Shown in pieces: positions 30,803-46,380 of a stretch of 64,000 nt of DNA. The notes under the pieces are model-generated. The model searched no databases, was not told the DNA's origin, and saw only the letters and a program-made list of their open reading frames with translations. Within the stretch, counting starts at the first letter, position 1, and each line of letters starts with the position of its first letter. Location: contig JAISKV010000001.1 of NCBI GenBank assembly GCA_031260805.1, positions 20,978 to 84,977 of the forward strand. The letters are read 5' to 3'. The translations under genes and the position numbers were made by a program. This DNA is from Rickettsiales bacterium (GTDB lineage: Bacteria; Pseudomonadota; Alphaproteobacteria; Rs-D84).

Positions 30803-30979
30803 ATGGCGTTTGATGTAGAAGCGGTATACAAGGAATATCAGGCGGCAGTTCGTTCAGGTAATGTTAACAAAATGAATGAAGTGCTGGAAAGTTTGAGCGA
30901 GGCTAAGTTCGGATTGTTAAGAAACTATATCAAGACAGTGAACGCAAAAGCCGCTATTGAGAATATTAAAAATAAATAA
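30803..30979 (+). CDS. small hypothetical protein (58 aa) inserted between rpsL and rpsG
   Basis: Begins 4 nt after rpsL stop. [61 protein letters not shown]. Not in ORF track (<60 aa). Confidence 0.4.
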
Positions 30980-31035
30980 ATCAGTGCGGAAACGCATTGA
31001 GTAATCGGGAAGCCGGTGAAGCAAAGGAAAAAACA

Positions 31036-31509
31036 ATGTCAAGACGAAACAGGGCAGTTAAACGGGAAATACTCAACGATTCCAAATACAACAATGCGGT
31101 TGTCGCGAAATGCATTAATATTATTATGCAGGATGGAAAAAAGGAAGTTGCGGAATCCATTGTTTACGGCGCGATGGAGAAATTGAAAAAAATCGCCAAG
31201 GATAACAATGAGCTGGCAATGTTCCTGACTGCGATTGACAATCTGAAACCAAGCGTGGAAGTAAAATCGCGGCGCGTTGGCGGAGCGACATACCAGGTCC
31301 CGGTGGAAGTTCGCCGTGATCGCCAGCAAACGCTGGCATTGCGCTGGCTGGTGGGCTTTGCCCGCAAGCGCAGCGAACGCAGCATGGAAGACCGTTTGTT
31401 TACGGAATTGCGCGATGCATTCGGCGGAACAGGCAGCGCGTTCAAGAAAAAGATTGACACACACAAAATGGCGGACGCGAACAAGGCGTTTGCGCATTTC
31501 CGCTGGTAA
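31036..31509 (+). CDS. rpsG: 30S ribosomal protein S7
   Basis: S7 conserved blocks ([33 protein letters not shown]); start trimmed to MSRRN. Confidence 0.95.
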
Positions 31510-31685
31510 TTTCCGCGCTGCGCGCGAAAATTAATGAATAATGAACAATGAATAGTTGTTCAGCAAGCAAAAGGTGAAGAAAGAATAAAAAATAATAAAT
31601 AATATTGCTGCGAGCAAAGCGAGCACAAACATTATTCATTATTCACTATTCATTATTCACTATTTGCGAACAAAGAGAGCAAATT
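31510..31685. repeat. ~175-nt intergenic repeat family B, copy 1 (rpsG-fusA spacer)
   Basis: Terminator-like GC hairpin, then arm AATGAATAATGAACAATGAATA. Then a core of about 75 nt, followed by arm CATTATTCATTATTCACTATTCATTATTCACTATTT. Near-identical copy at 42994-43177. Confidence 0.85.
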
Positions 31686-33767
31686 ATGTCTGTTGGAAAA
31701 ACCGCACCTTTGCATATGTATAGAAATATCGGCATTATGGCCCATATTGATGCTGGCAAGACGACGACCAGCGAACGCATTTTGTATTACACAGGCGTGA
31801 ATTACAAAATCGGCGAAGTGCATGACGGCGCGGCGACAATGGACTGGATGGTTCAGGAACAGGAGCGCGGGATCACGATTACATCTGCGGCGACGACTTG
31901 TTTTTGGCGCGATCATCGCATCAACTTGATTGATACGCCGGGCCATGTGGACTTTACTATGGAAGTGGAACGCTCCCTGCGCGTTCTGGACGGCGCGGTT
32001 GCGGTGTTCGAGTCTGTTTCCGGCGTGCAGCCGCAGTCTGAGACCGTTTGGCGTCAAGCGGATCGTTATAATGTTCCGCGCATCTGCTTTATTAACAAAA
32101 TGGACCGCACCGGCGCGAACTTCTTCCGCTGCGTGGACATGATACGCGAAAGACTGGGCGCGAATCCGCTGGTCTTGAATTTCCCGATTGGCGAAGAAGA
32201 AGCGTTCCGCGGCGTGGTTGATGTTGTGGAAATGAAGGGGATTGTTTGGGAAGACGAAACCGGATCCACCCCGATTGAAATTGATATTCCGGCGGAACTG
32301 CGGGCCAAGGCCGACGAATTGCACGATCGCTTGATTGAAGAAGCAGTAACCCAGGACGAAGCGGTTATGGAATCTTATATGGACGGATGCGTTCCGGACA
32401 TCGACACGATTAAAAAATTATTGCGCAAGGGAACGATTTCCCAGGCGTTCACGCCGATTGTATGCGGCACGGCGTTCAAGAACAAGGGCGTCCAGGCATT
32501 ATTGGATGCGGTTGTTGATTACTTGCCGTCGCCATTGGATATCGCGGCGATCAAGGGAACAAAGAAAGACGGCGAAACCGAAGAATTCCGCAAACCGTCA
32601 GCGGAAGAGCCTTTTGCGGCCCTGGCGTTCAAGGTTGCGAATGACCCGTTTGTCGGAAACTTGATGTTTATCCGCATTTATTCCGGGAAATTGTCCAGCG
32701 GCTCTTACATTTACAATTCAACGCGCGACAAGCGCGAGCGCGTCGGCCGCATGCTGCTGATGCATGCTAACAACCGCGAAGAAATCAAGGAAGCGTCCGC
32801 CGGCGATATCATAACGCTGGTCGGGATGAAGGAAACGATTACTGGCGACACGCTGTGCGACGAGTCCAAGCCGATCATCCTGGAATCAATCCATGTTCCG
32901 GATCCGGTTATGTCAATTTCCGTTGAACCGAAAACCAAAAACGATATTGAAAAACTGTCATTGGGATTGCAGGCGCTGGCCCGCGAAGATCCTTCGTTCC
33001 GCGTGTCGGTTGACCAGGAAAGCGGCCAGACGATTTTGTCCGGCGTCGGCGAATTGCACTTGGAAATTCTGGTGGACAGATTGCTGCGCGAGTTCAAGGT
33101 TGATGTTAATGTCGGCGAACCGCTGATTGCATACCGCGAATCATTCCGCAAAGCAATAGAAGAAGAGTACACGCATAAAAAGCAGTCCGGCGGTTCCGGC
33201 CAGTACGCCCAGGTGAAAATTAAATTTGAGCCGTTGGAACCGGGCAGCGGATATGAATTTGACAATCAGATTGTCGGCGGCGCGATACCGCGCGAATACA
33301 TCCCCGGTGTTGAAAAGGGATTGAAAATCGCCCAGCAAACCGGCGTTCTGATTGGATACCCGACCGTGGATTTCAAGGCGACTCTGATTGATGGAAAGTA
33401 CCATGAAGTTGACTCTAATGTGTTATGCTTTGAAATTGCGGCGCGCTCTTGCTTTCGCGAAGCGATAAAAAAGGCGCAGCCGAAACTGATGGAACCGATC
33501 ATGAAGGTGAGTGTTACTACGCCCGAAGAATATGTCGGCGACATCATTGGGGATCTGAACAGCCGTCGCGGTCAGATTAACGGGATTGAAACGCAGTTTG
33601 GAAACCAGGTGGTTTCAGCGTTCGTTCCGCTGGCGCAACTGTTCGGGTATATCAAGACCTTGCGCTCGCTGTCGCAGGGGCGCGCGAACCCGTACATGGA
33701 ATTGTCGCACTATGCGGATGTTCCACAGGGCGTGGCGGATGAAGTTATTAAAAAGATGATGAAGTAA
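31686..33767 (+). CDS. fusA: elongation factor G
   Basis: [23 protein letters not shown] GTPase motifs; full five-domain length; start trimmed to MSVGKTAP. Confidence 0.95.
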
Positions 33768-33852
33768 AACAATTAAAAATTAATAATTAAGAATTATAAA
33801 TTGGAACACAGTTATTAATTCTTAATTCATTTACTACGAAGGAGTAAATAAA

Positions 33853-35040
33853 ATGGCAAAAGAAAAATATGTACGCAGCAAACCGCATGTCAATATTGGT
33901 ACAATCGGCCATGTTGACCATGGAAAAACAACACTGACCGCCGCCATTGTGCATTACTATGGCATTGGCGCTGATGCCAAGAAAGGCGTCAATGACATTG
34001 ACAATGCGCCGGAAGAAAAAGCGCGCGGCATTACAATCAACACAGCGCATGTGGAATATGAAACAGAAAACCGCCACTACGCGCATGTAGACTGCCCGGG
34101 ACACGCGGACTATGTCAAGAATATGATTACCGGTGCGGCCCAGATGGACGGCGCGATCATCGTGGTTGCGGCGACAGACGGCCCGATGCCGCAGACGCGC
34201 GAACACATATTGCTGGCACGCCAGGTCGGTATTCCGAAAATCGTTGTTTACCTGAACAAGTGCGACTTGCTGAATGATCCGGAACTGTTGGAATTGGTTG
34301 AAATGGAAGTTCGCGAATTGCTGTCCGCCAATAACTTTGACGGCGAAAACACCCCGATTATCCGCGGTTCAGCCGTTTCAGCGCTGGAAGGCAAAGCAGA
34401 TGGTTTGGGCAAGGAATCAATTGACAACCTGCTGGCCGCGTGCGATTCGTTTATCCCGCTGCCGGAACGCCCGACGGACAAGTCTTTCCTGATGCCGATT
34501 GAAGATGTGTTTTCAATAACCGGCCGCGGAACCGTTTGTACCGGCCGTATTGAACAGGGTATCATCAAAGTTGGTGATGAAGCGGAAATCGTTGGTCTGC
34601 GCCCGACACAGAAAACGACAATAACCGGCGTTGAAATGTTCCGCAAATTGCTGGACGAAGGCCAGGCCGGGGACAATGTCGGACTGCTGCTGCGCGGAAC
34701 CAAGAAAGAAGATGTGGAGCGCGGACAAATCGTGTGCAAGCCGGGATCAATCACCCCGCACACCGAGTTCGAGGCGGAAATCTATGTCTTGAACAAAGAA
34801 GAAGGCGGCCGCCACACTGCATTTTTCAGCAACTATCGTCCGCAGTTCTATTTCAGCACGACAGATGTTACGGGAACAGTGGTTCTGCCGGCTGACAAAG
34901 AAATGGTTCTGCCGGGGGACAATGTCCGCATCACTGTCAACTTGATCGCGCCGATCGCGATGAGCGAAGGCCGCCGGTTTGCTATCCGCGAAGGCGGACG
35001 CACAGTTGGCGCGGGCGTCGTGTCAAAAATTATCAAATAA
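33853..35040 (+). CDS. tuf: elongation factor Tu
   Basis: [22 protein letters not shown] motifs; 395 aa. Confidence 0.97.
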
Positions 35041-35068
35041 TTTGGCGCAGCCAAATTATTTGATAGAT

Positions 35069-35130
35069 ATGAAACATGAGACACGAGACATGAATAATCA
35101 TGTTTCATATCTCATGTCTCGTATCTCAAA
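35069..35130. repeat. palindromic hairpin of ATGAAACATGAGACACGAGACATGA words
   Basis: Arm ATGAAACATGAGACACGAGACATGA / loop / TCATGTTTCATATCTCATGTCTCGTATCTCA. Preceded by a small terminator-like hairpin TTTGGCGCAGCCAAATT after tuf. Confidence 0.8.
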
Positions 35131-35160
35131 GAATTGAAAACTGGTCAAGGGAATTAAAAA

Positions 35161-35469
35161 ATGGAATCTAATAAAATTCGTATTAAATTGACAGCATTTG
35201 ATCATCGCGTTCTGGTTGACGCCGTGAACGAGATTGTCAAAGCGGCCAAGCGCACTGGGGCGGATGTCGCCGGGCCGATTCCTTTGCCGACATATATAAA
35301 CAAGTTTACAGTCAACCGTTCGCCTCATGTGAACAAAAAATCGCGTGAGCAGTTCGAGATTCGCAACCACAAGCGGATTATTGATATTGTTAACCCAACC
35401 CCTCAGACAGTTGATGCCTTGATGAAGTTGGATTTGGCGTCTGGCGTTGATGTGAAGATTAAATTATAA
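35161..35469 (+). CDS. rpsJ: 30S ribosomal protein S10
   Basis: [14 protein letters not shown]... conserved S10 sequence, 102 aa. Confidence 0.95.
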
Positions 35470-35470
35470 A

Positions 35471-35551
35471 GGTGTAAGTGTATGTGCGGGTGTAAGTTGA
35501 TTTTGCTTACAATTTCACCTGCACATACACCTGCACCTGCACAAAAAGGTA
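35471..35551. repeat. palindromic hairpin of GGTGTAAGTGTATGTGCGGGTGTAAG words
   Basis: Arms GGTGTAAGTGTATGTGCGGGTGTAAGTTG and CAATTTCACCTGCACATACACCTGCACCTGCAC between rpsJ and rplC. Confidence 0.8.
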
Positions 35552-35558
35552 TCAGAAA

Positions 35559-36314
35559 ATGAAACGAAGCGGTTTGATTACAAAAAAAGTCGGCATGACA
35601 CGAATGTACGACGAAGCGGGACGGGCTCATTCCATCACGGTTTTGTCCGTTGGCGACTGTACGGTTGTCGGCAATCGCACCATGGATAAAAACGGCTATG
35701 TCGCCGTGGTTCTGGGCTATATGGGCGCAAAAGAAAAGCATGTCGCGAAACCGCAACTGGTCGCAGCGCAGAAAGCGGGCGTTCGCGCATACCGCAAATT
35801 GTCTGAATTCCGCGTTTCCGAAGATTGTTTAATCCCTGTCGGCACCGAACTGTCGGCGGGGCATTTTGTTGCCGGTCAATTCCTGGATGTCCAGGCGACC
35901 AGCAAGGGCAAAGGATTCGCCGGCGGCATGAAACGCTGGAACAACAGCGGATTGGAAGCATCCCATGGCGTTCTGAAAGCGCATCGCTCGCTGGGGTCAA
36001 CCGGAAACCGCGAATGGCCCGCGCGCGTGTTCAAGGGTCATCACATGGCGGGACAGATGGGAAATGAAACCGTATCCGTGCAAAATCTGAAACTGTTCGG
36101 CATTGACGAAAACGATAATTTGTTGTTTGTGGAAGGGGCTGTGCCCGGCGCGAACGGCAGTTTTGTCATGGTGTCCGACGCGGTGAAAAAAATTCCGTCA
36201 GTTGAACTGCCGGTGCCGACCCGTTTGGCATCCGCGCCAGTTGCGGTAGAAACGGTTGTGGAACCAGCAGAAGAAGTCAAAGAAGAAGTCGCCAGCGAAG
36301 GTCAGGGTGAATAA
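35559..36314 (+). CDS. rplC: 50S ribosomal protein L3
   Basis: KKVGMTRM N-terminus, L3 core; acidic C-terminal extension. Confidence 0.9.
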   Translation: MKRSGLITKKVGMTRMYDEAGRAHSITVLSVGDCTVVGNRTMDKNGYVAVVLGYMGAKEKHVAKPQLVAAQKAGVRAYRKLSEFRVSEDCLIPVGTELSAGHFVAGQFLDVQATSKGKGFAGGMKRWNNSGLEASHGVLKAHRSLGSTGNREWPARVFKGHHMAGQMGNETVSVQNLKLFGIDENDNLLFVEGAVPGANGSFVMVSDAVKKIPSVELPVPTRLASAPVAVETVVEPAEEVKEEVASEGQGE

Positions 36315-36316
36315 TT

Positions 36317-36937
36317 ATGAAAGCGAATATTATAAATTTTGATGGCAAAAATACCGGTTCTGTTGAACTGGATGACGCGATTTTCGGCATAACGCCGCGC
36401 AGCGACATTCTGCACCGCGTGGTCGTTTGGCAGCAGGCGGCAATGCGCAGCGGAAATCACAAGGTCAAGACTGTTTCCGATATAACAGGTTCTTCGCGCA
36501 AATTGTTCAAGCAGAAAAAGACCGGAAATGCGCGCCAAGGCGAACGGTTCAATGTTCACATGCGCGGCGGCGCGGTCGTTCACGGACCGGTTGTGCGCGA
36601 TCATTCGTTTGATCTGCCGAAAAAAATCCGCGCGCTGGGATTAAAAATGGCTTTATCTGCCAAGTTGGCTGGCGGGGAACTGGTAATTTTGGATTCTGAA
36701 AAAATGTCTGCGGCGAAAACCGGCGACATGGCAAAGAAATTGAAAAAACTGTCATTGGCTTCGGCGTTGTTTGTCGGCGCGGATGCGATTGATGCGAATT
36801 TTCAGAAATCAATTGCGAATATCGCAAATATTGACGCGCTGCCGGCAATCGGGTTGAATGTGCGCGATATTCTGCGTCATAAAAAATTGGTCCTGACGGC
36901 GGATGCGGTTGCGGCGGTGGAAAAAAGGTTGGCGTAA
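36317..36937 (+). CDS. rplD: 50S ribosomal protein L4
   Basis: L4 family conserved blocks (KQKKTGNARQG, GGAVVHGP). Confidence 0.9.
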   Translation: MKANIINFDGKNTGSVELDDAIFGITPRSDILHRVVVWQQAAMRSGNHKVKTVSDITGSSRKLFKQKKTGNARQGERFNVHMRGGAVVHGPVVRDHSFDLPKKIRALGLKMALSAKLAGGELVILDSEKMSAAKTGDMAKKLKKLSLASALFVGADAIDANFQKSIANIANIDALPAIGLNVRDILRHKKLVLTADAVAAVEKRLA

Positions 36938-36938
36938 A

Positions 36939-37274
36939 ATGGCTGAAAATAAAGAAAAAATTGTAAAAACGGAAAAGAAAGTGGTTGCGACCGCCGGGAC
37001 TTATGATGTTCTGCGCCGCCCGATTATTTCGGAAAAGTCTGCGAGACTAGCCGAGGCGAACGGCCTGGCGTTCGAGGTTGCAATGAAATCTACCAAGAAA
37101 GATGTTGCAAAAGCGGTCCAGGCAATATATAATATCACGCCCGCCAAGGTTAATATTATCGTGGCCAAGGGCAAGGCGAACAAAGGCGCGCGGTTCAAGG
37201 GCGTCAATGGCGTTCAGAAAGATGTCAAGAAAGCATACATCACTCTGAAACCAGGGGACAAGATTGAAGCGTAA
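36939..37274 (+). CDS. rplW: 50S ribosomal protein L23
   Basis: L23 fold sequence (YDVLRRPIISEKS...KAYITL); start trimmed to MAENKE. Confidence 0.9.
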   Translation: MAENKEKIVKTEKKVVATAGTYDVLRRPIISEKSARLAEANGLAFEVAMKSTKKDVAKAVQAIYNITPAKVNIIVAKGKANKGARFKGVNGVQKDVKKAYITLKPGDKIEA

Positions 37275-37279
37275 TATAG

Positions 37280-37368
37280 ATAAAAGATAAAAATGAAAAG
37301 ATAAAAATTATTGCAGAAATTATTATCTTTTATCTTTTAATTTTTATCTTAAACGAACGAAGTGAGTT
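37280..37368. repeat. ~88-nt intergenic repeat family A, copy 1 (rplW-rplB spacer)
   Basis: GATAAAAGATAAAAATGAAAAGATAAAAATTATTGCAGAAATTATTATCTTTTATCTTTTAATTTTTATCTTAAACGAACGAAGTGAGTT. Palindromic AT-rich arms plus an AAACGAACGAAGTGAGT module ending 5-8 nt before the start codon. Confidence 0.9.
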
Positions 37369-37373
37369 AAATT

Positions 37374-38207: not shown

Positions 38208-38217
38208 AGGTAAAAAT

Positions 38218-38511: not shown

Positions 38512-38535
38512 AATTTGCGCCGCAAATTTTATCAA

Positions 38536-38624
38536 GATAAAAGATAAAAATGAAAAGATAAAAATTATTGCAGAAATTATTATCTTTTATCTTTTAATTT
38601 TTATATTAAACGAACGAAGTGAGT
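38536..38624. repeat. intergenic repeat family A, copy 2 (rpsS-rplV spacer)
   Basis: Near-identical to copy 1; preceded by terminator-like hairpin AAATTTGCGCCGCAAATTTT (38511-38530). Confidence 0.9.
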
Positions 38625-39068: not shown

Positions 39069-39069
39069 T

Positions 39070-39120
39070 TTTCAGAGTTCAGAATTCAGTATTTTGACTG
39101 AACTCTGAAAACTGAAAACT
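39070..39120. repeat. palindromic hairpin of CAGAGTTCAGAATTCAG words
   Basis: TTTTCAGAGTTCAGAATTCAGTATTTTGACTGAACTCTGAAAACTGAAAAC. Same word family at about 20228-20252, 52795-52820 and 60482-60522. Confidence 0.8.
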
Positions 39121-39146
39121 ATTTGCGACGATAGGAGCAAACAAGT

Positions 39147-39848: not shown

Positions 39849-39935
39849 AAATGAAAAGATAAAAATTTCTGCTGGTAAAGGAAAATAATTATTATCTTTT
39901 ATCTTTTAATTTTTATCTGAAATTAGCGAAGAGAG
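39833..39935. repeat. intergenic repeat family A, copy 3 (variant; rpsC-rplP spacer)
   Basis: GATAAAAGATAAAAATGAAAAGATAAAAAT...ATTATTATCTTTTATCTTTTAATTTTTATCT. Diverged centre and 3' module. The 5' arm overlaps the rpsC stop. Confidence 0.85.
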
Positions 39936-39943
39936 CAAATATT

Positions 39944-40357
39944 ATGTTAATGCCGACGAAAACAAAGTTTAAGAAACAGCACAAAGGCCGCATTCATGGC
40001 GATGCCAAGGGCGGATTTGAATTGGCGTTCGGATCTTTTGGGCTGAAAGCGATGTCTCCGGAACGGGTTACGGCGCGTCAGATTGAATCCGCGCGCCGCG
40101 CAATAACCCGCCACATGAAGCGGTTGGGCAAATTGTGGATACGCGTGTTCCCGGATGTGCCCGTCACGAAAAAGCCTGAACAGGTCCGCATGGGCAAGGG
40201 CAAGGGTGCGGTTGAATACTGGGTATGCCGTGTGAAACCGGGCCGCATTATGTTCGAGTTGGATGGCGTGAAACCGGAAATCGCGACCGAGGCATTGACG
40301 CTGGCCGCGGCGAAATTGCCGCTGCGCACAAAGATTGTTGAAAGAAAGGCGAATTAA
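39944..40357 (+). CDS. rplP: 50S ribosomal protein L16
   Basis: [17 protein letters not shown]-terminus; L16 core. Confidence 0.97.
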
Positions 40358-40358
40358 A

Positions 40359-40577
40359 ATGGCAGCGAAAAAAGAAATAAAAAAAGCGGTGAAAGCCGAT
40401 AAAGAAGTTTTAAGCAGCGAAGCGTTGAAAAGCCGCTTGGTGGACTTGAAAAAAGAAGCGATGGAAAATCGGTTCAAGTTGGCGGCCGGACAATTGCCGA
40501 AAACTCATGTGGTGCGCAAAAATCGCCGTGAGATTGCCAGGGTTCTGACCGCATTGAATAATAAAAAGGACGCATAA
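40359..40577 (+). CDS. rpmC: 50S ribosomal protein L29
   Basis: Small helical protein after rplP, 72 aa; start trimmed to MAAKKEIKK. Confidence 0.85.
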
Positions 40578-40578
40578 C

Positions 40579-40845
40579 ATGCCAAGACGAGTATTACAAG
40601 GAACAGTGGTCAGCGATGCCAACGACAAAACAGTTGTCGTCAATGTTGAACGCCGGTTCCGTCATCCCTTGTACGGGAAATTTGTAAAACAGAACAAAAA
40701 GTACAAGGTGCACGACGAAAACAACGAATATAAAAAAGGCCAGGTGGTTGCCATTGAAGAGCACCGTCCGATTTCCAAAACGAAAAAGTGGATGGTTCGC
40801 GGACTGGTCGGCGTCGCCAAAGACGCAAGCGTGGATGTGGAATAA
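40579..40845 (+). CDS. rpsQ: 30S ribosomal protein S17
   Basis: [29 protein letters not shown]-fold S17 sequence. Confidence 0.95.
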
Positions 40846-40975
40846 AAATTAAGAATTAATAATCAAGAATTAAGAATTCTTGAAGATTGATTCTGATTAT
40901 ATAGATAAACGGGGAAAGAGTTCAGGTTTTGATAGAGAATATAATTCTTGATTCTTAATTCTTAATTCTTAATTA
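40846..40975. repeat. long palindrome of AATTAAGAATTAATAATCAAGAATTAAGAATT words
   Basis: Arms AAATTAAGAATTAATAATCAAGAATTAAGAATTCTTG and AATTCTTGATTCTTAATTCTTAATTCTTAATT with about 60-nt loop. Same word family at 3217-3311, 33790-33835, 43580-43615 and 60310-60420. Confidence 0.8.
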
Positions 40976-40979
40976 TGAA

Positions 40980-41354
40980 ATGATACAGAATGAAACAATT
41001 ATGAAAGTGGCGGACAACAGCGGGGCCAAGCGCGCGCAGTGCATCAAGGTGCTGGGCGGGTCTCATCGCCGCTATGCTACGCTGGGCGACAAGATTGTCG
41101 TCGCGATAAAAGACGCTATTCCCAATGGCAAGGTTCAGAAGGGAACCGTTCAGCGCGCGATTATCGTTCGCACAAAGTTCGCGACGAAACGCAGCGACGG
41201 CAGCGTGATCCGCTTTGACGACAACGCGGTCGTGCTGATTAACAAGAATAATTTTGAACCGATCGGGACCCGCATTTTCGGACCTGTCGCGCGCGAAGTT
41301 CGCCGCAAGTACGATGTTCAGAAAATTGTGTCCCTGGCACCGGAAGTTATATAA
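40980..41354 (+). CDS. rplN: 50S ribosomal protein L14
   Basis: [17 protein letters not shown]...[11 protein letters not shown] conserved L14. Confidence 0.97.
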
Positions 41355-41391
41355 AAGTGAAAAGTAAAAAGTGAAATTAAGGCGGGTTGAT

Positions 41392-41697
41392 ATGAAGATA
41401 AAGAAAAATGATGAAGTCGTTGTGATTTCGGGAAAATACAAAGGGGCCAAGGGCAAAGTTCTGGAAGCGCGCCCGACGGAATCCCGCGTGGTTGTCGCCG
41501 GCGTGAATCCGCGCAAGTTTCATATCAAGCCGACCCAGGACAAGCCGGGCAGCATTGAAACGCGCGAAACGCCGATACATGTGTCAAATGTCGCGCTGAT
41601 TGATCCAAAGTCAAAAAAAGCGACCAAGGTCGGATATAAAATTGCAGACGGAAAGAAAGTCCGCGTCGCAAAGAAATCCGGCACGGAAATGAATTAA
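41392..41697 (+). CDS. rplX: 50S ribosomal protein L24
   Basis: KOW motif [22 protein letters not shown]; start trimmed. Confidence 0.95.
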
Positions 41698-41711
41698 TAA
41701 AAGCAAGAGGC

Positions 41712-41987
41712 GTGGCGTCTGATTTTTCGGCGGGCAACGCCGGGGGTCAGAAAGTGGTTAAGAAAATTACAGTTCCTGCGATGATATATTATCTGGTTGT
41801 GCAGGGCGAATATATTGTCGGTCAAGAAGATTCGTATCAGATATCTGGACATGACATAGTGGCGAACGGAAAATATGTTATATACAATTCCGAAACAAGG
41901 AAAGTCAGGGTCAGGGCGGTAAAAGAAAAAGATTTATTGCAGAAAACGGTTTTAAGACTGGTTTTGGAAAACGAAAAGAAAAAATAA
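41712..41987 (+). CDS. hypothetical protein (91 aa) inserted between rplX and rplE
   Basis: GTG start 15 nt after rplX stop with AGCAAGAGG upstream. Beta-rich sequence VPAMIYYLVVQGEYIVGQ...GKYVIYNSETRKVRVRAV with Lys-rich tail. Not a known ribosomal protein. Confidence 0.4.
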   Translation: MASDFSAGNAGGQKVVKKITVPAMIYYLVVQGEYIVGQEDSYQISGHDIVANGKYVIYNSETRKVRVRAVKEKDLLQKTVLRLVLENEKKK

Positions 41988-42026
41988 ACCTTGCCTGCTG
42001 ATACAGGCGAAATAAAGGAAAACAAA

Positions 42027-42572
42027 ATGCAGAGCAGATTGCGAGATTTTTACGAAAAGACCATAGTTCCCGAATTAAAAAAGGAATTCAGTCTGACAAA
42101 CAGCCTGGCGGTTCCGCGCATTACGAAAATCGTGCTGAACATGGGCGTGGGTGAAGCGGCGGCGGACAAAAAGAAACTGGACAACGCGGCGGCGGATCTG
42201 ACACTGATTGCGGCGCAGAAGCCTGTTATCACCAAGGCGAAAAAGTCAATCGCGACATACCGCCTGCGCGAAGGCCAGGCCATCGGGACCAAGGTCACCC
42301 TGCGCGGAAAGCGCATGTATGATTTCTTGGACAAACTGATTACAATCGCATTGCCGCGGATAAAAGACTTTCAGGGATTGTCCAAGTCCAAATTTGACGG
42401 GCGCGGAAACTATGCCTTTGGAATCAAGGAACATTTGATATTCCCGGAAATTTCCGTTGAAAAAATAGAATCTATCCGCGGAATGGATATCGTTATCGCG
42501 ACCACCGCCGAAACAGATGACCAAGGGCGCGCATTGCTGACCAGAATCGGCCTGCCGCTGGTGTTGAAATAA
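42027..42572 (+). CDS. rplE: 50S ribosomal protein L5
   Basis: L5 conserved core ([13 protein letters not shown]...); start trimmed to [10 protein letters not shown]. Confidence 0.95.
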
Positions 42573-42596
42573 AATTTGCGGCGCAAATTTTATCAA

Positions 42597-42686
42597 GATA
42601 AAAGATAAAAATGAAAAGATAAAAATTATTGCAGAAATTATTATCTTTTATCTCTTAATTTTTATCTTAAACGAACGAAGTGAGTG
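42597..42686. repeat. intergenic repeat family A, copy 4 (rplE-rpsN spacer)
   Basis: Near-identical to copies 1-2; preceded by terminator-like AAAATTTGCGGCGCAAATTTT; 3' module ends 4 nt before rpsN ATG. Confidence 0.9.
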
Positions 42687-42690
42687 AAAA

Positions 42691-42993
42691 ATGGCAAAGA
42701 AAGCATTAAGATTAAAACAGGACAAGCGGATCAAGATGGTTGCGCGCTTTACTAAAAAGCACGACGCTATCAAAGATAAAATGTCCATAACCGCGACGCC
42801 CGAAGAACGGATGGACGCAATGAAAAAATTGGCGAAACTGCCGCGCAACGCGAACAAGACGCGCCTGCACAACCGCTGCGCCATCACTGGCCGGTCGCGC
42901 GGATTCTTCCGCCTGTTCGGACTGTGCCGCCAACAGGTTCGCACGCTGGCGTCCGAAGGAAAACTGCCGGGCGTCCGCAAATCGTCATGGTAA
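42691..42993 (+). CDS. rpsN: 30S ribosomal protein S14 (long, non-zinc type)
   Basis: 101 aa, RCAITGRSRGFFRLFGLCRQ C-terminal S14 block, no CxxC pair. Confidence 0.95.
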   Translation: MAKKALRLKQDKRIKMVARFTKKHDAIKDKMSITATPEERMDAMKKLAKLPRNANKTRLHNRCAITGRSRGFFRLFGLCRQQVRTLASEGKLPGVRKSSW

Positions 42994-43177
42994 TTTTTGC
43001 GCCGCGCGCAAAAATTAATGAATAATTAAAAATGAACAATGAATAATTGTTCAGCAAGCAAAAGGTGAAGAAAGAATAAAAAATAATAAATAATATTGCT
43101 GCGAGCAAAGCGAGCCAAACATTATTCATTATTCACTATTCATTATTCACTATTTGCGACTGCAAGGAGCAAATGAA
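42994..43177. repeat. intergenic repeat family B, copy 2 (rpsN-rpsH spacer)
   Basis: Near-identical to 31510-31685, including internal GTTCAGCAAGCAAAAGGTGAAGAAAGAATAAAAAATAATAAATAATATTGCTGCGAGCAAAGCGAGC core. Confidence 0.85.
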
Positions 43178-43579
43178 ATGAGTTTATCATATCCGATCGG
43201 GGACTTGTTGGCAAGAATTCGCAACGGGCAGCGCGCGTATAAGCCTTCTGTCCGCGCGCCGTACAGCAAACTGGCTGCCAATGTGCTGGATGTCATGAAG
43301 GCCGAAGGCTTTATCACGGACTTTCGCAAAGAAGATCTGGGCGACAACAAGTTTGATGTCATCGTTGACTTGAAATATGTCGCGGGCGGCGAAGGCGCGA
43401 TTCAGGAATTGTCGCTGGTATCCAAACCGGGCCGCCGCGTTTATTCCAATGTCGCCAAGATGCCGCGCGTCATGAACGGGCTGGGCGTGCTGATTGTTTC
43501 AACGCCGGGCGGAATTATGACTGATCACCAGGCGCGCATGCAGAACATCGGCGGCGAAGTGATTTGCAAAATAGTTTGA
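43178..43579 (+). CDS. rpsH: 30S ribosomal protein S8
   Basis: DLLARIRNGQRA N-terminal block, S8 core; start trimmed to MSLSYP. Confidence 0.95.
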   Translation: MSLSYPIGDLLARIRNGQRAYKPSVRAPYSKLAANVLDVMKAEGFITDFRKEDLGDNKFDVIVDLKYVAGGEGAIQELSLVSKPGRRVYSNVAKMPRVMNGLGVLIVSTPGGIMTDHQARMQNIGGEVICKIV

Positions 43580-43640
43580 TAAAATTAAGAATTAAGAAAT
43601 AAGAATTAATAATTCTTTTACGAACGAAGTGAGTGAAATT

Positions 43641-44201
43641 ATGAGCAGAGCGGGAAAATATCCAGTAGAAATCAAAAACGGCGTCAATGTCGCCATTGTC
43701 GGGTCCGACATTGTTGTCCGGGGGCCGCGCGGCGAATTGAAACTGCGCAATGACACGAAAAATGCCGGCTTGGTTGATGTCAAGATTGAAGGCGCGGCGG
43801 TTGTCGTCATTCCGAAAGACGCGGAAGACAAAGCATCGCGCGCGATGTGGGGAACAATGGCTCGCAACATCAAACAGATGGTTGTCGGCGTCACAGACGG
43901 CTGGTCCAAAGATATTTGCATGAAGGGCGTCGGGTACAAGGCGAATGTGCGCGGTTCCGACCTGGTGCTGACAGCAGGATACTCGCATGATGTCGTCATG
44001 CCGATTCCGGCCGGATTGTCTGTTGAAATCGGCGCGACTGAAAACGGCATTGTGAACTTTGCAGTTCGTGGGACTGACAAAAACGCGGTCGGACAGTTCA
44101 GCGACAAAATCTGCAAGGTGCGTCCGGTTGAACCTTACAAGGCCAAGGGCATTTATTACAAGGGTCAAAAGATTATCCGCAAAGAAGGAAAAAAGAAATA
44201 A
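43641..44201 (+). CDS. rplF: 50S ribosomal protein L6
   Basis: MSRAGKYPVEI...two-domain L6; start trimmed. Confidence 0.95.
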   Translation: MSRAGKYPVEIKNGVNVAIVGSDIVVRGPRGELKLRNDTKNAGLVDVKIEGAAVVVIPKDAEDKASRAMWGTMARNIKQMVVGVTDGWSKDICMKGVGYKANVRGSDLVLTAGYSHDVVMPIPAGLSVEIGATENGIVNFAVRGTDKNAVGQFSDKICKVRPVEPYKAKGIYYKGQKIIRKEGKKK

Positions 44202-44398
44202 TGTTTGATGTTCGGACTTTATGCATGGCATTGGGTTATGGAACCGGTATTGCGGGCGCGGCTGTCATATTTGTGTCGGCTTTTGCATCCAAGGCAAAAA
44301 GCGATGCCATGAACGCGGAACAGTTTAACGAATTGATGGAAATAAACAAGCGGGCGTTGGAATGTTTTGACAATGCCAAGAGAATAGAAGTAAAATAA
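44201..44398 (+). CDS. small hypothetical membrane-associated protein (65 aa) inserted between rplF and rplR
   Basis: ATG overlaps rplF stop (TAATG coupling arrangement); one hydrophobic helix then charged helical tail. Confidence 0.4.
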   Translation: MFDVRTLCMALGYGTGIAGAAVIFVSAFASKAKSDAMNAEQFNELMEINKRALECFDNAKRIEVK

Positions 44399-44458
44399 AC
44401 GGCGAAATTAAATAAAAAACCTGCCGTCCGCTGATACGGACAAACAAAGGATTGAAAA

Positions 44459-44812
44459 ATGTTGAAAAAGTTAGATACAAACGAACGCCGCGTGATGTCT
44501 GTCCGCAGCGCGCTGAAAAAGAAAAATCCCGGAAAAATCCGCCTTTCGGTTTTCCGCAGCGTCCGCCATATTGAAATCCAGGCGATTGATGATGTCAACG
44601 GCCGCACGCTGGCCTTTGCATCCAGCAAGGAAAAAGATTTCAAGGGCAACGGCTGGAATGTCGCCGGGGCGACCGCGGTTGGCAAAATATTTGCCGAACG
44701 CGCCAAGCAGGCAAAACTGGACGCGGTTTATTTTGACCGCGGCGGATACCGCTATCACGGCCGGGTCCGGGCGTTGGCGGACGCGATGCGCGCCGGTGGG
44801 GTCAAGATTTAA
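44459..44812 (+). CDS. rplR: 50S ribosomal protein L18
   Basis: RLSVFRS...HIEIQAIDD...YFDRGGYRYHGRV conserved L18. Confidence 0.95.
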   Translation: MLKKLDTNERRVMSVRSALKKKNPGKIRLSVFRSVRHIEIQAIDDVNGRTLAFASSKEKDFKGNGWNVAGATAVGKIFAERAKQAKLDAVYFDRGGYRYHGRVRALADAMRAGGVKI

Positions 44813-44835
44813 TTTCCGCGCCGCGGAAATTAAAT

Positions 44836-44908
44836 CAGTTATTAGTTATTAATTATTATACTTTTGCGCGCAATGATGTAATAATTAATAACTGATAATT
44901 TATAACTA
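44836..44908. repeat. palindromic hairpin of CAGTTATTAGTTATTAATTATTA words
   Basis: Arms CAGTTATTAGTTATTAATTATTATAC and GTAATAATTAATAACTGATAATTTATAACTA. Preceded by small hairpin AATTTCCGCGCCGCGGAAATT after rplR. Confidence 0.8.
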
Positions 44909-44930
44909 AAAAATACGGAGTATTTTTATA

Positions 44931-45488
44931 ATGGCAAGATATGAAGATAAAAAAAACCAGCAGCCGATTGACAACTTGACGGACAAGTTGGTGTCAATCA
45001 ACCGCGTGTCCAAGGCGGTCAAGGGCGGGGACAGCATGTCGTTTTCCGCGCTGGTTGTCGTCGGGGACAAGGCTGGAAAAATCGGATTCGGCAAGGGCAA
45101 GGCGCGCGAAGTGCAAAGCGCGGTGCAAAAGGCGACCAAGGCGGCCAAGGCAAAAATGATCCGCGTTCCGCTGAAAGAAGGCCGCACGCTGCATCATGAC
45201 ATTGAATCCAAGTACGGCGCGGGCAAACTGGTGATTCGCAGCGCGGCTCCGGGTACCGGCGTTATCGCGGGCGGCGCGCTGCGCGCGGTCTTTGAGTGCC
45301 TGGGCATCCAGGATGTCGTCGCAAAATCCCAGGGCAGCAACAATCCTAATAACATGGTTCGCGCGGCATTTACGGCTTTTGCAAAAATCAATTCGCCAAA
45401 GAGCGTCGCGGCGCGCCGCGGCAAGCAGGTTGCTGAAATCATCGCGGCCCGCGATGGCAAAAAAGTAGCAGAGAGCGAGGCTGAATAA
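44931..45488 (+). CDS. rpsE: 30S ribosomal protein S5
   Basis: S5 dsRBD and C-terminal domain blocks ([20 protein letters not shown]). Confidence 0.95.
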
Positions 45489-45490
45489 AA

Positions 45491-45664
45491 ATGGCAAAAA
45501 TAACAGTAAAACAAATTAAAAGTTCAATCGGTCGTCCGGAAACTCAGCGTAAGACGCTGATATCCCTGGGGTTGGGCCGTATTGGCAAAACCAAAGAACT
45601 GGAAGACAGCCCGATTATTCACGGGCAGATCGCCAAGGTTGCGCATTTGATAGAAGTAAAGTAA
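45491..45664 (+). CDS. rpmD: 50S ribosomal protein L30
   Basis: 57-aa [60 protein letters not shown] between rpsE and rplO. Not in ORF track (<60 aa). Confidence 0.85.
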
Positions 45665-45675
45665 ATTTAAGGAAC

Positions 45676-46140
45676 TTGACAATGAAACTGAATGAAATAA
45701 AAGATAATTTGGGCGCGACGCACAGCATCAAGCGCGTTGGACGCGGATTGGGCAGCGGAACCGGAAAAACGGCCGGCCGCGGAAACAAGGGGCAAAAGGC
45801 GCGCGCCGGGTCGCGCAAGCAGGCGACTTTCCAAGGTGGCCAGATGCCGATTTTGCGTCGTTTTCCAAAGTTCGGATTCAACAATCCTTTTGCGAAAAAT
45901 TACGCGACGATAAATCTGGGTGATATTCAGAAATTTATTGAATCCGGGAAAATTGACGCAAAACAGGAAATTTCACTGGAATCGCTGATGGCTGCGAAAA
46001 TTCTGAACCGCGCGCAGTCGGGCTTGAAAATTCTGGCCAAGGGCGAATTGAAGTCCGCGGTGCAGATTGTCGCTGCAAAATGGTCTGCGGCGGCCCAGGC
46101 GGCGGTTGAAAAATCAAATGGAAAAATCACAAAAGCATAA
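45676..46140 (+). CDS. rplO: 50S ribosomal protein L15
   Basis: Gly/Arg-rich N-terminus [23 protein letters not shown]15 core. Confidence 0.95.
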
Positions 46141-46161
46141 ACGAAAAAAAAGGAGAGTGGG

Positions 46162-46380
46162 ATGACAAAGCAACAAAACAACTTGTTGATAAAAATTCTG
46201 GTGTCGCTGGCGATATTTCTGATTTGCTTTTTCAGCATTGATGTTATCGTTCGTCTGTTCAGTTATTTCTTGGTCAAGGTATTGTTTGCCGCATTGATAA
46301 CTTACGCGATTGTGCAGATTGCGGACAAATTGGGACTGCCGGGATTTGCCGCGGCGCCGAAAACAGGAAAAAAGAAGTGA
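46162..46380 (+). CDS. small hypothetical membrane protein (72 aa) inserted between rplO and secY
   Basis: Two predicted TM helices, Lys-rich C-terminus; occupies a position that is normally empty. Confidence 0.4.
   Translation: MTKQQNNLLIKILVSLAIFLICFFSIDVIVRLFSYFLVKVLFAALITYAIVQIADKLGLPGFAAAPKTGKKK

What the first reader, a model, noticed from the sequence alone, without database searches (positions are those of the whole stretch)
30803..46380. Four small ORFs inserted into the normally compact str/S10/spc ribosomal-protein operons
The four ORFs are: 30803-30979, a 58-aa helical protein between rpsL and rpsG; 41712-41987, 91 aa with a GTG start and ribosome-binding site, between rplX and rplE; 44201-44398, 65 aa with its ATG overlapping the rplF stop in a TAATG coupling arrangement, between rplF and rplR; and 46162-46380, 72 aa with two TM helices, between rplO and secY. 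None resembles a ribosomal protein. Gene order in these operons is among the most conserved in bacteria, so four insertions in one lineage is unusual. Their tight spacing or overlap with neighbours suggests they are co-translated with ribosomal proteins. They might be lineage-specific ribosome-associated factors, or selfish cargo such as small toxins or membrane peptides delivered with the repeat elements.
Basis: seen in the sequence. Interest (0 to 1): 0.6.

Follow-up and report, generated by a model that had tools for sequence, protein, structure and literature searches.

The report
Small orphan genes in ribosomal operons
Four small extra genes really do sit between ribosomal-protein genes in this gut bacterium. 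One is a conserved small membrane protein always encoded just before the secretion-channel gene secY; the other three have no detectable relatives and no known role.

Summary
All four ORFs exist at the stated coordinates. GenBank annotates them as hypothetical proteins of a 'Rickettsiales bacterium' MAG, whose nearest relatives are reduced-genome gut Alphaproteobacteria (Ca. Enterousia / Rs-D84-like). They are not one kind of thing.

- **ORF4 (46162-46380)** is a real conserved gene. It belongs to a family of 15 cluster representatives (67-75 aa, two hydrophobic segments, invariant K-x-G-L-P-G motif, Lys-rich tail). Every copy with context lies between rplO and secY. It has a conserved strong Shine-Dalgarno site and is under purifying selection.
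- **ORF3** has no sequence homologue. Several relatives carry a small ORF with an N-terminal hydrophobic segment and a basic tail at the same rplF-rplR junction.
- **ORF1 and ORF2** are orphans. ORF1 found only itself and repeat proteins in 1.84 billion cluster representatives. ORF2 found only itself in a word-indexed search of 5.8 billion. Both have frame-specific, gene-like codon usage.

None matches phage, plasmid, defence or repeat sequences, so the 'selfish cargo' reading is unsupported. Ribosome association is untested.

Relatives carry other ORFs at other junctions, so this clade's operons are unusually permissive to insertion.

Side finding: a covarying hairpin precedes both rplE and rplR across the clade. 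ORF2 and ORF3 sit just upstream of it.

The parts
30803..30979 (+). ORF1: 58-aa orphan ORF between rpsL (30425-30799) and rpsG (31036-31509). Residues 6-44 resemble one helix-turn-helix unit of ankyrin/Sel1-type repeats.
   Evidence: The exact sequence is annotated hypothetical. A full HMMER search of 1.84e9 representatives found only self plus two large repeat proteins. Frame-specific codon signal, z 3.2. Weak SD (-3.7) but only 3 nt after the rpsL stop. Absent from the 9+ relatives that cover this junction.
41712..41987 (+). ORF2: 91-aa orphan ORF between rplX and rplE. It is 77 aa if it starts at GTG 41754, which has the better Shine-Dalgarno site.
   Evidence: Only self in the 5.8e9-protein search. 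No Pfam, NCBIfam, PHROG, PADLOC, phage or plasmid hit. Codon z 4.5. SD analysis. AF2 pLDDT 41, uninformative. Absent from about 30 relatives; L010 has an unrelated 109-aa ORF at the same junction.
41987..42014 (+). Conserved operator-like hairpin (stem GCCUG/CAGGC, loop CUGAUA) upstream of rplE. It begins 5 nt after the ORF2 stop.
44201..44398 (+). ORF3: 65-aa ORF between rplF and rplR. It has an N-terminal hydrophobic segment (about residues 7-28) followed by a charged helical tail. Its ATG overlaps the rplF stop.
   Evidence: KD19 1.88. Codon z 3.5. SD -5.7. No sequence homologue in 110 loci. Small TM-plus-basic-tail ORFs lie at the same junction in L001, L082/L109, L083 and L084.
44420..44447 (+). 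Second copy of the conserved hairpin (stem GUCCG/CGGAC, loop CUGAUA), upstream of rplR.
46150..46157 (+). Shine-Dalgarno AAGGAGAG of ORF4. It is the strongest in the cluster and is conserved in all five lineages examined.
46162..46380 (+). ORF4: 72-aa member of a conserved family of small membrane proteins with two hydrophobic segments. All copies with known context lie between rplO and secY.
   Evidence: alignment A3; synteny; dN/dS 0.06-0.34 where estimable; hydropathy; AF2: helix 3-57, pLDDT 75.
46387..46436 (+). Near-perfect palindrome forming a 20+-bp hairpin (-36 kcal/mol) between ORF4 and secY. Non-homologous hairpins occupy the same spacer in 3 of 4 other lineages.
46454..47773 (+). 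secY, the gene that ORF4 always precedes. It has no Shine-Dalgarno site here (dG +2.2).

Best explanation
The four ORFs are genuine but unrelated lineage-specific small genes. They have settled in the abnormally long spacers of the str/S10/spc cluster of a reduced-genome, gut-associated alphaproteobacterial lineage.

Shown:
- ORF4 encodes a conserved small protein of about 71 aa with two hydrophobic segments, a short polar turn (G-E-F-L-S in the family), an invariant K-x-G-L-P-G motif and a Lys-rich tail.
- It has been kept immediately upstream of secY, with its own strong ribosome-binding site, across lineages whose synonymous sites are saturated.

Inferred:
- ORF4 is an N-in/C-in inner-membrane hairpin made in step with SecY. 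It most likely acts at or with the Sec translocon, as an accessory or assembly partner.
- ORF3 is a small N-terminally anchored membrane protein. Several relatives have an equivalent at the same rplF-rplR junction. It either evolves too fast for sequence homology to survive or has been replaced repeatedly.
- ORF1 (helical hairpin) and ORF2 are species-level orphans, probably young genes. They are translated because they sit directly after an r-protein stop codon in a very highly expressed transcript.
- The inserted ORFs at the rplX-rplE and rplF-rplR junctions all lie between the upstream stop codon and the downstream gene's conserved hairpin plus SD. A plausible selected effect is therefore that their translation keeps ribosomes moving across the inserted DNA up to the next gene's initiation region. 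This would preserve translational coupling and protect the mRNA, whatever the peptides themselves do.
For: The ORFs are real and carry coding-like signal.

ORF4 family:
- tblastn E 2e-15 and 9e-10 at the same position in L082 and L081.
- 15 cluster representatives at 31-54% identity to the window copy, none with a Pfam domain.
- Every one of the 10 loci with context shows L15-X-SecY.
- pN 0.12-0.42 against pS 0.57-0.77.
- Conserved AAGGAGAG SD.
- Hydropathy 2.85.
- The ORF4-bearing relatives form one clade in a 4-protein NJ tree, and the window copy is the most divergent on the longest branch. This fits old vertical descent with losses.

ORF3: TM-type ORFs at the same junction in L001, L082/L109, L083 and L084.

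The clade is permissive to insertion:
- 115 aa at rplD>rplW, and 108+86+71 aa at rplO>secY, in L109.
- 109 aa at rplX>rplE in L010.
- 111-152 aa at rplN>rplX or rpmD>rplO in L011-L016.
- A second ORF type (GDYLSGQK motif) at rplF>rplR in L085, L095 and L100, decayed in L011.
- Spacer medians 98 / 41 / 16 nt.

Placement upstream of a covarying hairpin. Many relatives' ORFs stop 0-5 nt before it.

Lineage context: Rs-D84 / Ca. Enterousia genomes are reduced and rich in hypothetical membrane proteins (PMC12306168).
Against: - No expression, proteomic or interaction data exist. The link between ORF4 and SecY rests on synteny alone.
- The AF2 model is a single 55-residue helix rather than a hairpin, and only of moderate confidence.
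- Most relatives in the clade lack ORF4, so it is dispensable.
- For ORF1 and ORF2 the nearest available genomes are only 73-78% identical in core r-proteins. Conservation could therefore not be tested. Their codon scores are at the low end of real genes.
- ORF2's annotated start has a badly spaced SD.
- ORF3's similarity to its positional analogues is no better than shared hydrophobicity (best z 2.5, other pairs about 0; no blastp link).
- Thirteen other spacers of 49-181 nt in the same operon contain no ORF, only hairpin repeats. Continuous translation is therefore clearly not obligatory.
Confidence: 0.55

Rival explanations
1. ORF4 is not a structural membrane protein but a regulatory upstream ORF of secY. 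It would be a 'monitoring substrate' of the SecM/MifM/VemP/ApdP type. Its nascent chain would stall the ribosome near the conserved K-x-G-L-P-G motif unless its first hydrophobic segment is engaged by the Sec/YidC machinery, and this would tune SecY synthesis.
For: It meets all four in-silico criteria used to nominate monitoring substrates (PMC10987492):
- It is a small uORF of unknown function directly upstream of a sec gene.
- It has an N-terminal TM segment.
- It has a conserved C-terminal motif.
- There are 33 residues between the end of TM1 and the end of the motif.

A stable hairpin lies between the uORF and secY in 4 of 5 lineages. The published domain-wide screen looked only upstream of secA, secDF and yidC, so a secY-linked case would have been missed.
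Against: - Conservation is spread over the whole protein, including both hydrophobic segments. It is not confined to the C-terminus.
- The motif is not RAPP-like.
- The 'spacer' is itself a hydrophobic segment.
- The hairpins do not sequester the secY start region. They end 10-20 nt before the ATG, and secY has no SD to sequester.
- In L082/L109 the gap is 3 nt with no hairpin.
- secY lacks a strong SD across the clade whether or not ORF4 is present (p = 0.09).
Confidence: 0.12
2. ORF1, ORF2 and perhaps ORF3 are not functional genes. They would be open frames that happen to persist in recently expanded, A-rich sense-strand spacer DNA, called as genes by automatic annotation.
For: - No homologue anywhere.
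- Absent from every relative at the same junction.
- Lower GC (37-43%) than flanking genes.
- Codon scores at the bottom of the real-gene range.
- AF2 cannot fold ORF2.
- ORF2's start is ambiguous and ORF1's SD is weak.
- Relatives show ORFs appearing and decaying at these junctions, for example the in-frame stop in L011.
Against: - Stop-free runs of 58-91 codons are improbable at this composition: by my own rough estimate, about 0.3% per frame for 91 codons at 40% GC.
- All of them lie on the sense strand, start 0-14 nt after the upstream stop and fill most of the spacer.
- The annotated frame is clearly the best of six. It beats all 500 shuffles for each ORF and all, or all but 2, of 171 out-of-frame control ORFs.
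Confidence: 0.22
3. The ORFs are selfish or mobile cargo (small toxins, holin-like or type-I-toxin-like membrane peptides) brought in with the repeat elements that fill the neighbouring spacers.
For: - ORF4 has the size and layout of a class II holin: about 71 aa, two hydrophobic segments, basic C-terminus. A few family members give weak holin or small-TM-protein Pfam and PHROG hits (E at least 0.014).
- ORF3 is a short hydrophobic peptide.
- Hairpin repeat elements are abundant in the same operon.
Against: - The ORF regions are single-copy in the window and overlap no repeat family.
- No significant PHROG or PADLOC hit for any of the four.
- No relative of any of the four in IMG/VR viral contigs.
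- No tblastn match in the phage collection for ORF2 and ORF4, nor in the plasmid collection for ORF2 and ORF4.
- ORF4 is vertically conserved at one chromosomal position under purifying selection.
- A lethal peptide could not be tolerated behind the strongest SD of an essential, constitutive operon.
Confidence: 0.04
4. The ORFs encode lineage-specific ribosome-associated proteins, either extra r-proteins or assembly factors. This would explain their location.
For: - Location and likely co-translation with r-proteins.
- ORF1 and ORF2 are basic overall (net charge +2 and +5).
- Reduced genomes sometimes acquire lineage-specific ribosome components (general knowledge).
Against: - No similarity to any r-protein or ribosome-factor family.
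- ORF3 and ORF4 are predicted membrane proteins.
- ORF1 and ORF2 are not conserved even in the closest available relatives, whereas true ribosome components would be.
Confidence: 0.07

Closest known systems
Monitoring substrates / regulatory arrest peptides encoded upstream of Sec and YidC genes (SecM-secA, MifM-yidC2, VemP-secDF2, ApdA/ApdP-secDF, ApcA-yidC2)
   Same: ORF4 is a small ORF of unknown function directly upstream of a protein-export gene. It has an N-terminal hydrophobic segment, a conserved C-proximal motif and more than 30 residues between them. These are the published screening criteria (PMC10987492).
   Different: The downstream gene is secY, for which no such regulator is described. 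The motif (K-x-G-L-P-G) is not RAPP, RAGP or any other known arrest motif. The whole protein, including a second hydrophobic segment, is conserved. No SD-sequestering stem is present. Arrest was not tested.
Small accessory subunits and partners of the SecYEG translocon (SecG, SecE, YajC), and bacterial small inner-membrane proteins in general
   Same: Small size, one or two membrane segments, positive-inside termini, and genetic linkage to a core export gene.
   Different: No sequence similarity to SecG, SecE or YajC families (no Pfam hit at E up to 10). No match in the PDB. Found only in one alphaproteobacterial clade and lost in many of its members. Physical association is untested.
Orphan (taxonomically restricted) and de novo genes arising in intergenic DNA
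   Same: ORF1 and ORF2 (and possibly ORF3) are short, have no homologues, are AT-richer than their neighbours, have weak-to-moderate codon adaptation, and sit in expanded spacers where relatives show gain and decay of other ORFs.
   Different: They lie inside one of the most conserved and most highly expressed operon arrays of bacteria, not in ordinary intergenic regions. Their origin (de novo or transferred) could not be determined.
Autogenous r-protein operators, e.g. the E. coli S8 operator overlapping the rplE start and the S7 site in the rpsL-rpsG spacer
   Same: ORF2 and ORF1 occupy exactly the two spacers that carry these operators in E. coli (PMC3616713). A conserved, covarying hairpin precedes rplE in this clade.
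   Different: The hairpin is a simple 7-bp stem with a hexaloop, not the internal-loop mimic of 16S helix 21. It also precedes rplR. It is absent from other Alphaproteobacteria sampled and matches no Rfam family. Its binding protein is unknown.
Class II (two-TM) phage holins
   Same: ORF4 has the same length and layout: about 71 aa, two hydrophobic segments and a highly basic C-terminus.
   Different: There is no phage context, no endolysin neighbour, and no phage or viral homologue. It holds a conserved chromosomal position in an essential operon.

Membership tests
Monitoring substrate / Sec-linked arrest peptide (criteria of Fujiwara et al. 2024, PMC10987492) | Small ORF of unknown function immediately upstream of a sec or yidC gene | tested here: met
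   ORF4 and all homologues with context lie directly upstream of secY. No precedent exists for secY itself; the published screens covered secA, secDF and yidC.
Monitoring substrate / Sec-linked arrest peptide | N-terminal signal or transmembrane segment | tested here: met
   Hydropathy maximum 2.85 starting at residues 8 and 12 of ORF4. No dedicated TM predictor was available.
Monitoring substrate / Sec-linked arrest peptide | C-terminal sequence conserved among homologues, more than 30 residues after the localisation signal | tested here: met
   K56-x-G58-L59-P60-G61 is invariant or nearly so in 15 sequences. It lies about 33 residues after the end of the first hydrophobic segment. However, the intervening residues form a second conserved hydrophobic segment, unlike known members.
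Monitoring substrate / Sec-linked arrest peptide | Downstream gene's initiation region held in a stem-loop that a stalled ribosome opens | tested here: not met
   Hairpins occur in 4 of 5 lineages but end 10-20 nt before the secY ATG. secY has no SD. L082/L109 have a 3-nt gap and no hairpin.
Monitoring substrate / Sec-linked arrest peptide | Force-sensitive translation arrest of the nascent chain | not testable with these tools
   Needs in-vitro translation or toeprinting, or in-vivo reporter assays.
SecG / SecE / YajC translocon subunits | Sequence membership of the respective families | tested here: not met
   No Pfam or NCBIfam hit to these families for ORF4 or any of 15 family members at E up to 10. 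No PDB sequence match.
SecYEG-associated small membrane protein (functional class) | Physical association with SecY | not testable with these tools
   Only conserved synteny with secY is shown.
Ribosomal proteins / ribosome-associated factors | Similarity to a ribosomal protein or factor family, and conservation with the ribosome | tested here: not met
   No family hit. ORF1 and ORF2 are absent from all relatives. ORF3 and ORF4 are hydrophobic.
Mobile or selfish cargo (phage, plasmid, defence, repeat-borne) | Copies on mobile elements or association with the local repeat families | tested here: not met
   Single-copy in the window, with no overlap with repeats. No significant PHROG or PADLOC hit for any of the four. 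No relative of any of the four in viral contigs. No tblastn match in phages (ORF2, ORF4) or plasmids (ORF2, ORF4). ORF1 and ORF3 were not run against the phage and plasmid collections.
Class II holin | Two TM segments with a basic C-terminus, AND location in a lysis cassette | tested here: not met
   The architecture fits. The context is L15-X-SecY in every case. Holin HMM hits are only at chance level.
Orphan / taxonomically restricted gene | No detectable homologue outside a narrow lineage, despite a coding-like signal | tested here: met
   ORF1: only self plus repeat-motif matches among 1.84e9 representatives. ORF2: only self among 5.8e9 proteins (word-indexed search). ORF3 was checked only against 110 related loci and viral contigs. 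Coding signal.

The most novel reading that the evidence does not exclude
The ORF4 family would be the first SecY-dedicated small partner. One version is a new accessory subunit of the translocon in a reduced-genome alphaproteobacterial lineage. The other, more striking, is a monitoring uORF whose membrane insertion reports translocon capacity and tunes SecY synthesis. That would extend the SecM/MifM/VemP principle to the channel gene itself, which published screens did not examine.
Probability: 0.15. Interest if true: 0.8.

Novelty: new member of a known kind. Interest (0 to 1): 0.45.

Why it matters
The str/S10/spc array is usually treated as frozen. Here a whole clade of reduced-genome gut Alphaproteobacteria tolerates, gains and loses small ORFs inside it, which makes it a natural system for studying how new small genes arise in extremely highly expressed, translationally coupled operons.

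One of these ORFs has become a stable, selected small membrane protein locked to secY. That is a concrete, testable candidate for a new translocon partner or regulator.

The work also exposed a covarying hairpin specific to the L5 and L18 genes. It is a candidate new autoregulatory operator for the two 5S-rRNA-binding proteins.

If ORF1-ORF3 turn out to be untranslated, the lesson is the more modest one that annotation pipelines call orphan ORFs in expanded spacers.

Tried and rejected
1. **Concatenated query.** One homologous-protein search used all four ORFs joined. It returned nothing, not even the self sequences, so it was uninformative and cost one of three searches.
2. **Paralogy between the ORFs or with neighbours.** ORF1 vs ORF3 (shared M-(A)-F-D-V start) and ORF2 vs the L010 ORF at the same junction gave no alignment. 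There are no paralogues in the window, including L24.
3. **Homology of the ORF3 positional analogues.** No blastp links. Smith-Waterman z-scores against shuffles reach at most 2.5 for the window copy, and hydrophobic clustering inflates them. Homology remains unproven.
4. **Structure.** ORF2 as a single sequence gave pLDDT 41. ORF4 gave one long helix. Fold searches would have been meaningless and were not run.
5. **'ORF4 replaces the secY Shine-Dalgarno'.** secY lacks a strong SD across the clade whether or not ORF4 is present (p = 0.09). Rejected.
6. **Hairpin after ORF4 as a conserved regulatory element.** Its presence is recurrent, but the sequences are unrelated, there is no U-tract, and hairpins fill most spacers of these genomes. 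Not specific.
7. **Rfam on 30000-48500.** Only chance-level matches of long hairpins to miRNA precursor families.
8. **Weak Pfam hits of the ORF4 family** (DUF1656, DUF2839, holins). Best E is 1e-4 for single members, all are small-TM families, and compositional similarity is likely.
9. **Closer relatives.** None found. Best r-protein identity is 73-78% in both GTDB species genomes and JGI metagenomes, so dN/dS for ORF1-ORF3 could not be computed.

Full report
**Where the window comes from**

The four exact protein sequences are in public collections as hypothetical proteins of a 186.6-kb contig of a MAG labelled 'Rickettsiales bacterium' (locus tags LBO08_00285, _00370, _00395, _00420). They also occur in an independent Logan assembly.

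A scan of GTDB species genomes with L22, and of JGI metagenomes with L6, found no close relative. The best loci are 73-78% identical over six core r-proteins. They are termite-gut and animal-gut Alphaproteobacteria, including Candidatus Enterousia. Enterousia belongs to GTDB order Rs-D84, whose members have reduced genomes (about 0.7-1.6 Mb) and probably depend on a partner organism (PMC12306168). Placing the window's organism in or near that order is an inference from r-protein similarity.

**Checking the observation**

- ORF1 starts 3 nt after the rpsL stop.
- ORF3's ATG shares a base with the rplF stop (TAATG).
- ORF4 follows AAGGAGAG.

None hits Pfam or NCBIfam.

Two codon-usage tests were run.
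- A log-likelihood against out-of-frame control ORFs gave 0.38, 0.35, 0.21 and 0.37. That is the range of real genes in the window. None of 171 controls reached ORF1, ORF2 or ORF4, and 1.2% reached ORF3.
- Because the sense strand is A-rich, base composition was then corrected for. The annotated frame is still the best of six for all four. Z-scores against shuffles are 3.2, 4.5, 3.5 and 5.0, compared with 3.6-6.6 for six true small r-protein genes.

ORF4 therefore looks like an ordinary gene. ORF1-ORF3 look like weakly adapted ones.

One correction concerns ORF2. The SD of its GTG is only 0-1 nt from the start codon. An in-frame GTG at 41754 has dG -9.3 and spacing 5.

**ORF4 is a conserved gene tied to secY**

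- tblastn of the four ORFs against 103 related loci gave hits only for ORF4. The hits were at the same rplO-secY position in L082 (52% identity, E 2e-15) and L081 (31%, E 9e-10).
- A profile of the three sequences recovered 15 cluster representatives of 67-75 aa among 5.8 billion proteins. All are unnamed and none has a Pfam domain.
- The alignment is conserved along its whole length. Invariant positions are M1, V14, S34, T47, G58, L59 and G61. Nearly invariant positions include F32, L33, L42, A43, A44, W48, K56 and P60.
- Every copy whose surroundings could be read lies between L15 and SecY: L081, L082, L104-L110.
- Synonymous sites are saturated (pS 0.57-0.77) while pN is 0.12-0.42. dN/dS is 0.06-0.34 where it can be estimated.
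- All five lineages examined keep AAGGAGAG 4-6 nt before the ATG. In the window this is the strongest SD of the whole cluster.
- Hydropathy predicts two adjacent membrane segments with a very short polar turn. Both termini are positively charged, which suggests an N-in/C-in hairpin. AF2 drew a single helix over residues 3-57 at pLDDT 75, which neither confirms nor excludes the hairpin.
- No PDB sequence, phage, plasmid or viral-contig relative exists.
- In a 4-protein NJ tree the ORF4-bearing relatives form one clade, and the window branches deeper on a long branch. The window copy is also the most divergent member. This fits an old gene lost in Enterousia-like lineages, but the tree is crude.

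**What ORF4 might do**

Conserved synteny with secY and co-expression suggest a translocon-linked membrane protein. That is my preferred reading, but it is inference.

A more exciting alternative is a monitoring uORF. ORF4 satisfies the four in-silico criteria used to nominate such peptides, and the published domain-wide screen examined only secA, secDF and yidC (PMC10987492).

Several points weigh against that alternative:
- Conservation is not restricted to the C-terminus.
- The motif is unlike RAPP or RAGP.
- The hairpins between ORF4 and secY (4 of 5 lineages, unrelated sequences) do not cover the secY start.
- L082/L109 have a 3-nt gap.
- secY lacks a strong SD across the clade whether or not ORF4 is present.

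**ORF3**

No sequence homologue was found. However, the rplF-rplR junction carries a small ORF with an N-terminal hydrophobic segment and a basic tail in L001 (42 aa), L082/L109 (57 aa), L083 (52 aa) and L084 (55 aa). All have KD19 maxima of 2.07-2.43, against 1.88 for ORF3 itself.

Pairwise scores between some of these relatives exceed shuffles (z up to 4.9). The window copy reaches only z 2.5 with one of them, and shuffling destroys hydrophobic clustering, so homology is unproven.

Other relatives carry a different, soluble ORF type at the same junction (motif GDYLSGQK; L085, L095, L100). It has an in-frame stop in L011. This junction is therefore a hotspot where small ORFs turn over.

**ORF1 and ORF2**

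- ORF1 was searched with full HMMER against 1.84 billion cluster representatives. Apart from itself, only two proteins of over 1000 aa matched, through many repeats. One is an ankyrin-repeat protein and one a Sel1-repeat protein.
- ORF1 residues 6-44 (Y[20 protein letters not shown]) therefore resemble a single helix-turn-helix repeat unit. That is a structural motif, not a family assignment.
- ORF2 found only itself. It has no hit in PHROGs, PADLOC, phages or plasmids and folds poorly as a single sequence.
- Neither has a counterpart at its junction in any relative. The one exception is an unrelated 109-aa ORF between rplX and rplE in L010.
- With no genome closer than about 78% r-protein identity, conservation cannot be judged. 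They are best described as orphan ORFs with a real but modest coding signal.

**Is this cluster unusual?**

Yes, and so is the clade. Across 25 junctions from rpsL to secY, the median spacer is 98 nt in the window, 41 nt in 42 clade loci and 16 nt in 68 other loci, mostly other Alphaproteobacteria (a few short clade contigs were misassigned to this group). Spacers of 140 nt or more make up 24%, 6% and 2.8% respectively.

The ORF-free spacers of the window are filled with hairpin-forming repeat elements. The four ORF regions are single-copy in the window and overlap none of those repeats. This argues against delivery with the repeats.

Relatives hold further inserted ORFs:
- 115 aa at rplD>rplW, and 108+86+71 aa at rplO>secY, in L109.
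- 83-94 aa at rplD>rplW in L084 and L010.
- 111 aa, lipoprotein-like, at rplN>rplX in L013 and L014.
- 113-152 aa at rplO's upstream junction (rpmD>rplO) in L011, L012, L015 and L016.

**A conserved hairpin frames two of the insertions**

The same short hairpin follows both ORF2 and ORF3, so I examined the relatives.
- A 7-bp stem with invariant CCG/CGG at its top and the loop CUGUUA (CUGAUA in the window, L081 and L107) lies 18-26 nt before the start codon of rplR in 37 of 38 clade loci and of rplE in 27 of 31. It precedes none of six other genes.
- On 52 distinct sequences, 95.9% of cells pair. Five of seven pairs show double (compensatory) changes, in 56 cells. No shuffle reaches these values, and slid controls pair only 22-55%.
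- A covariance model finds these two sites as its strong hits in most clade loci searched (one in L109, none in L010). It finds nothing in five outgroup Alphaproteobacteria.
- Rfam has no match.

L5 and L18 are the two 5S-rRNA-binding proteins of the operon. In E. coli, S8 represses the operon at the rplE start (PMC3616713). The hairpin is thus a candidate clade-specific operator, with an unknown binding protein.

From memory, the loop resembles the conserved CUGAUAC stretch of 16S helix 21, which forms part of the S8 site. I could not check this.

For the present finding, the hairpin shows that ORF2, ORF3 and the relatives' ORFs at these junctions were all accommodated in one permissive slot. 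That slot lies after the upstream stop codon and before the downstream gene's hairpin and SD. Many ORFs end 0-5 nt from the stem. This suggests, but does not show, that translating through the insert up to the next initiation region is itself useful.

**Verdict**

The ORFs are lineage-specific and probably co-translated. There is no evidence for ribosome association, and there is evidence against selfish cargo.

The set is heterogeneous: one conserved secY-linked small membrane protein family (uncharacterised), one small membrane ORF with positional analogues only, and two orphans.

Noticed in passing
window 41987-42014 and 44420-44447; same positions in L001-L016, L081-L109: A conserved, covarying 7-bp hairpin with hexaloop CUGUUA/CUGAUA lies 18-26 nt upstream of the start codons of rplE (L5) and rplR (L18) only. 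It is found across the clade (37/38 and 27/31 loci), is absent from outgroup Alphaproteobacteria and has no Rfam match. It is a candidate new autoregulatory operator for the two 5S-rRNA-binding proteins, or an S8 site.
   Followed up: yes
window 31532-31624, 37248-37367, 38505-38624, 39826-39935, 40845-40975, 42566-42685, 43015-43152, 43577-43619 and elsewhere (e.g. 11069-11288, 25332-25415): Most other spacers of the r-protein cluster, and many spacers elsewhere in the window, are filled by hairpin-forming elements built from tandem 7-nt units (AAGATAA.../...TTATCTT, AAGGTTT/AAACCTT, AAGAATT/AATTCTT). Some are repeated at 82-100% identity between spacers. No ORFs lie inside them.
   Followed up: partly
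window 44367-44396: A near-consensus sigma-70-like promoter (TTGACA, 18 nt, TAAAAT; 11 of 12) lies inside the 3' end of ORF3, about 60 nt before rplR. It could be an internal promoter or chance; the count of such sites in the region is not above shuffles.
   Followed up: no
window 46454 (secY start) and 40980 (rplN start): secY and rplN have no Shine-Dalgarno complementarity at all (dG +2.2 and +0.4), while the other genes of the cluster have -4 to -9 kcal/mol. secY lacks a strong SD across the whole clade.
   Followed up: partly
L109 314-661, 7561-7734, 9399-10216, 12537-14914; L107 8520-9137, 10391-10648: A relative (contig ERZ27257320 k141_4664224) has five extra ORFs inside the S10/spc array. 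It also has four reverse-strand genes, two of them OMP beta-barrels, inserted between rpsK and rpoA. L107 has extra ORFs between rpsK/rpoA and rpoA/rplQ. The whole S10-spc-alpha array is permissive to insertion in this clade.
   Followed up: partly
L085, L095, L100 (intact) and L011 (in-frame stop), rplF>rplR spacer: A second, soluble ORF type of 49-81 aa with motif G-D-Y-L-S-G-Q-K occupies the same junction as ORF3 in Enterousia-like lineages. It has decayed in one of them, which gives direct evidence of turnover of spacer ORFs.
   Followed up: partly
L006, L085, L088, L090, L093, L094, L099, secY>rpsM spacer (150-215 nt): This spacer is conserved at the sequence level across Enterousia-like loci and is read in several frames by short ORFs (…CKNQKHSKNVWILNV…, …KKENKRWHV). 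It could be a conserved RNA element or the remnant of rpmJ (L36). The window has no rpmJ or adk after secY.
   Followed up: no
window 30803-30979 (ORF1) vs P0021, P0022: ORF1 aligns to the repeat units of an ankyrin-repeat protein (8 stretches, E 4e-11) and a Sel1-repeat protein. It looks like a free-standing single helix-turn-helix repeat. One IMG annotation calls it 'cytochrome c553', which nothing supports.
   Followed up: partly
window 63342-63665: A 107-aa ORF looks, by eye from its sequence, like a HigA/XRE-type helix-turn-helix antitoxin (…LGLSQNALARAINVPQNRINEIANGKRGIT…). No family search was run. It contains the only other near-match to the CUGAUAC hairpin core, presumably by chance.
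   Followed up: no
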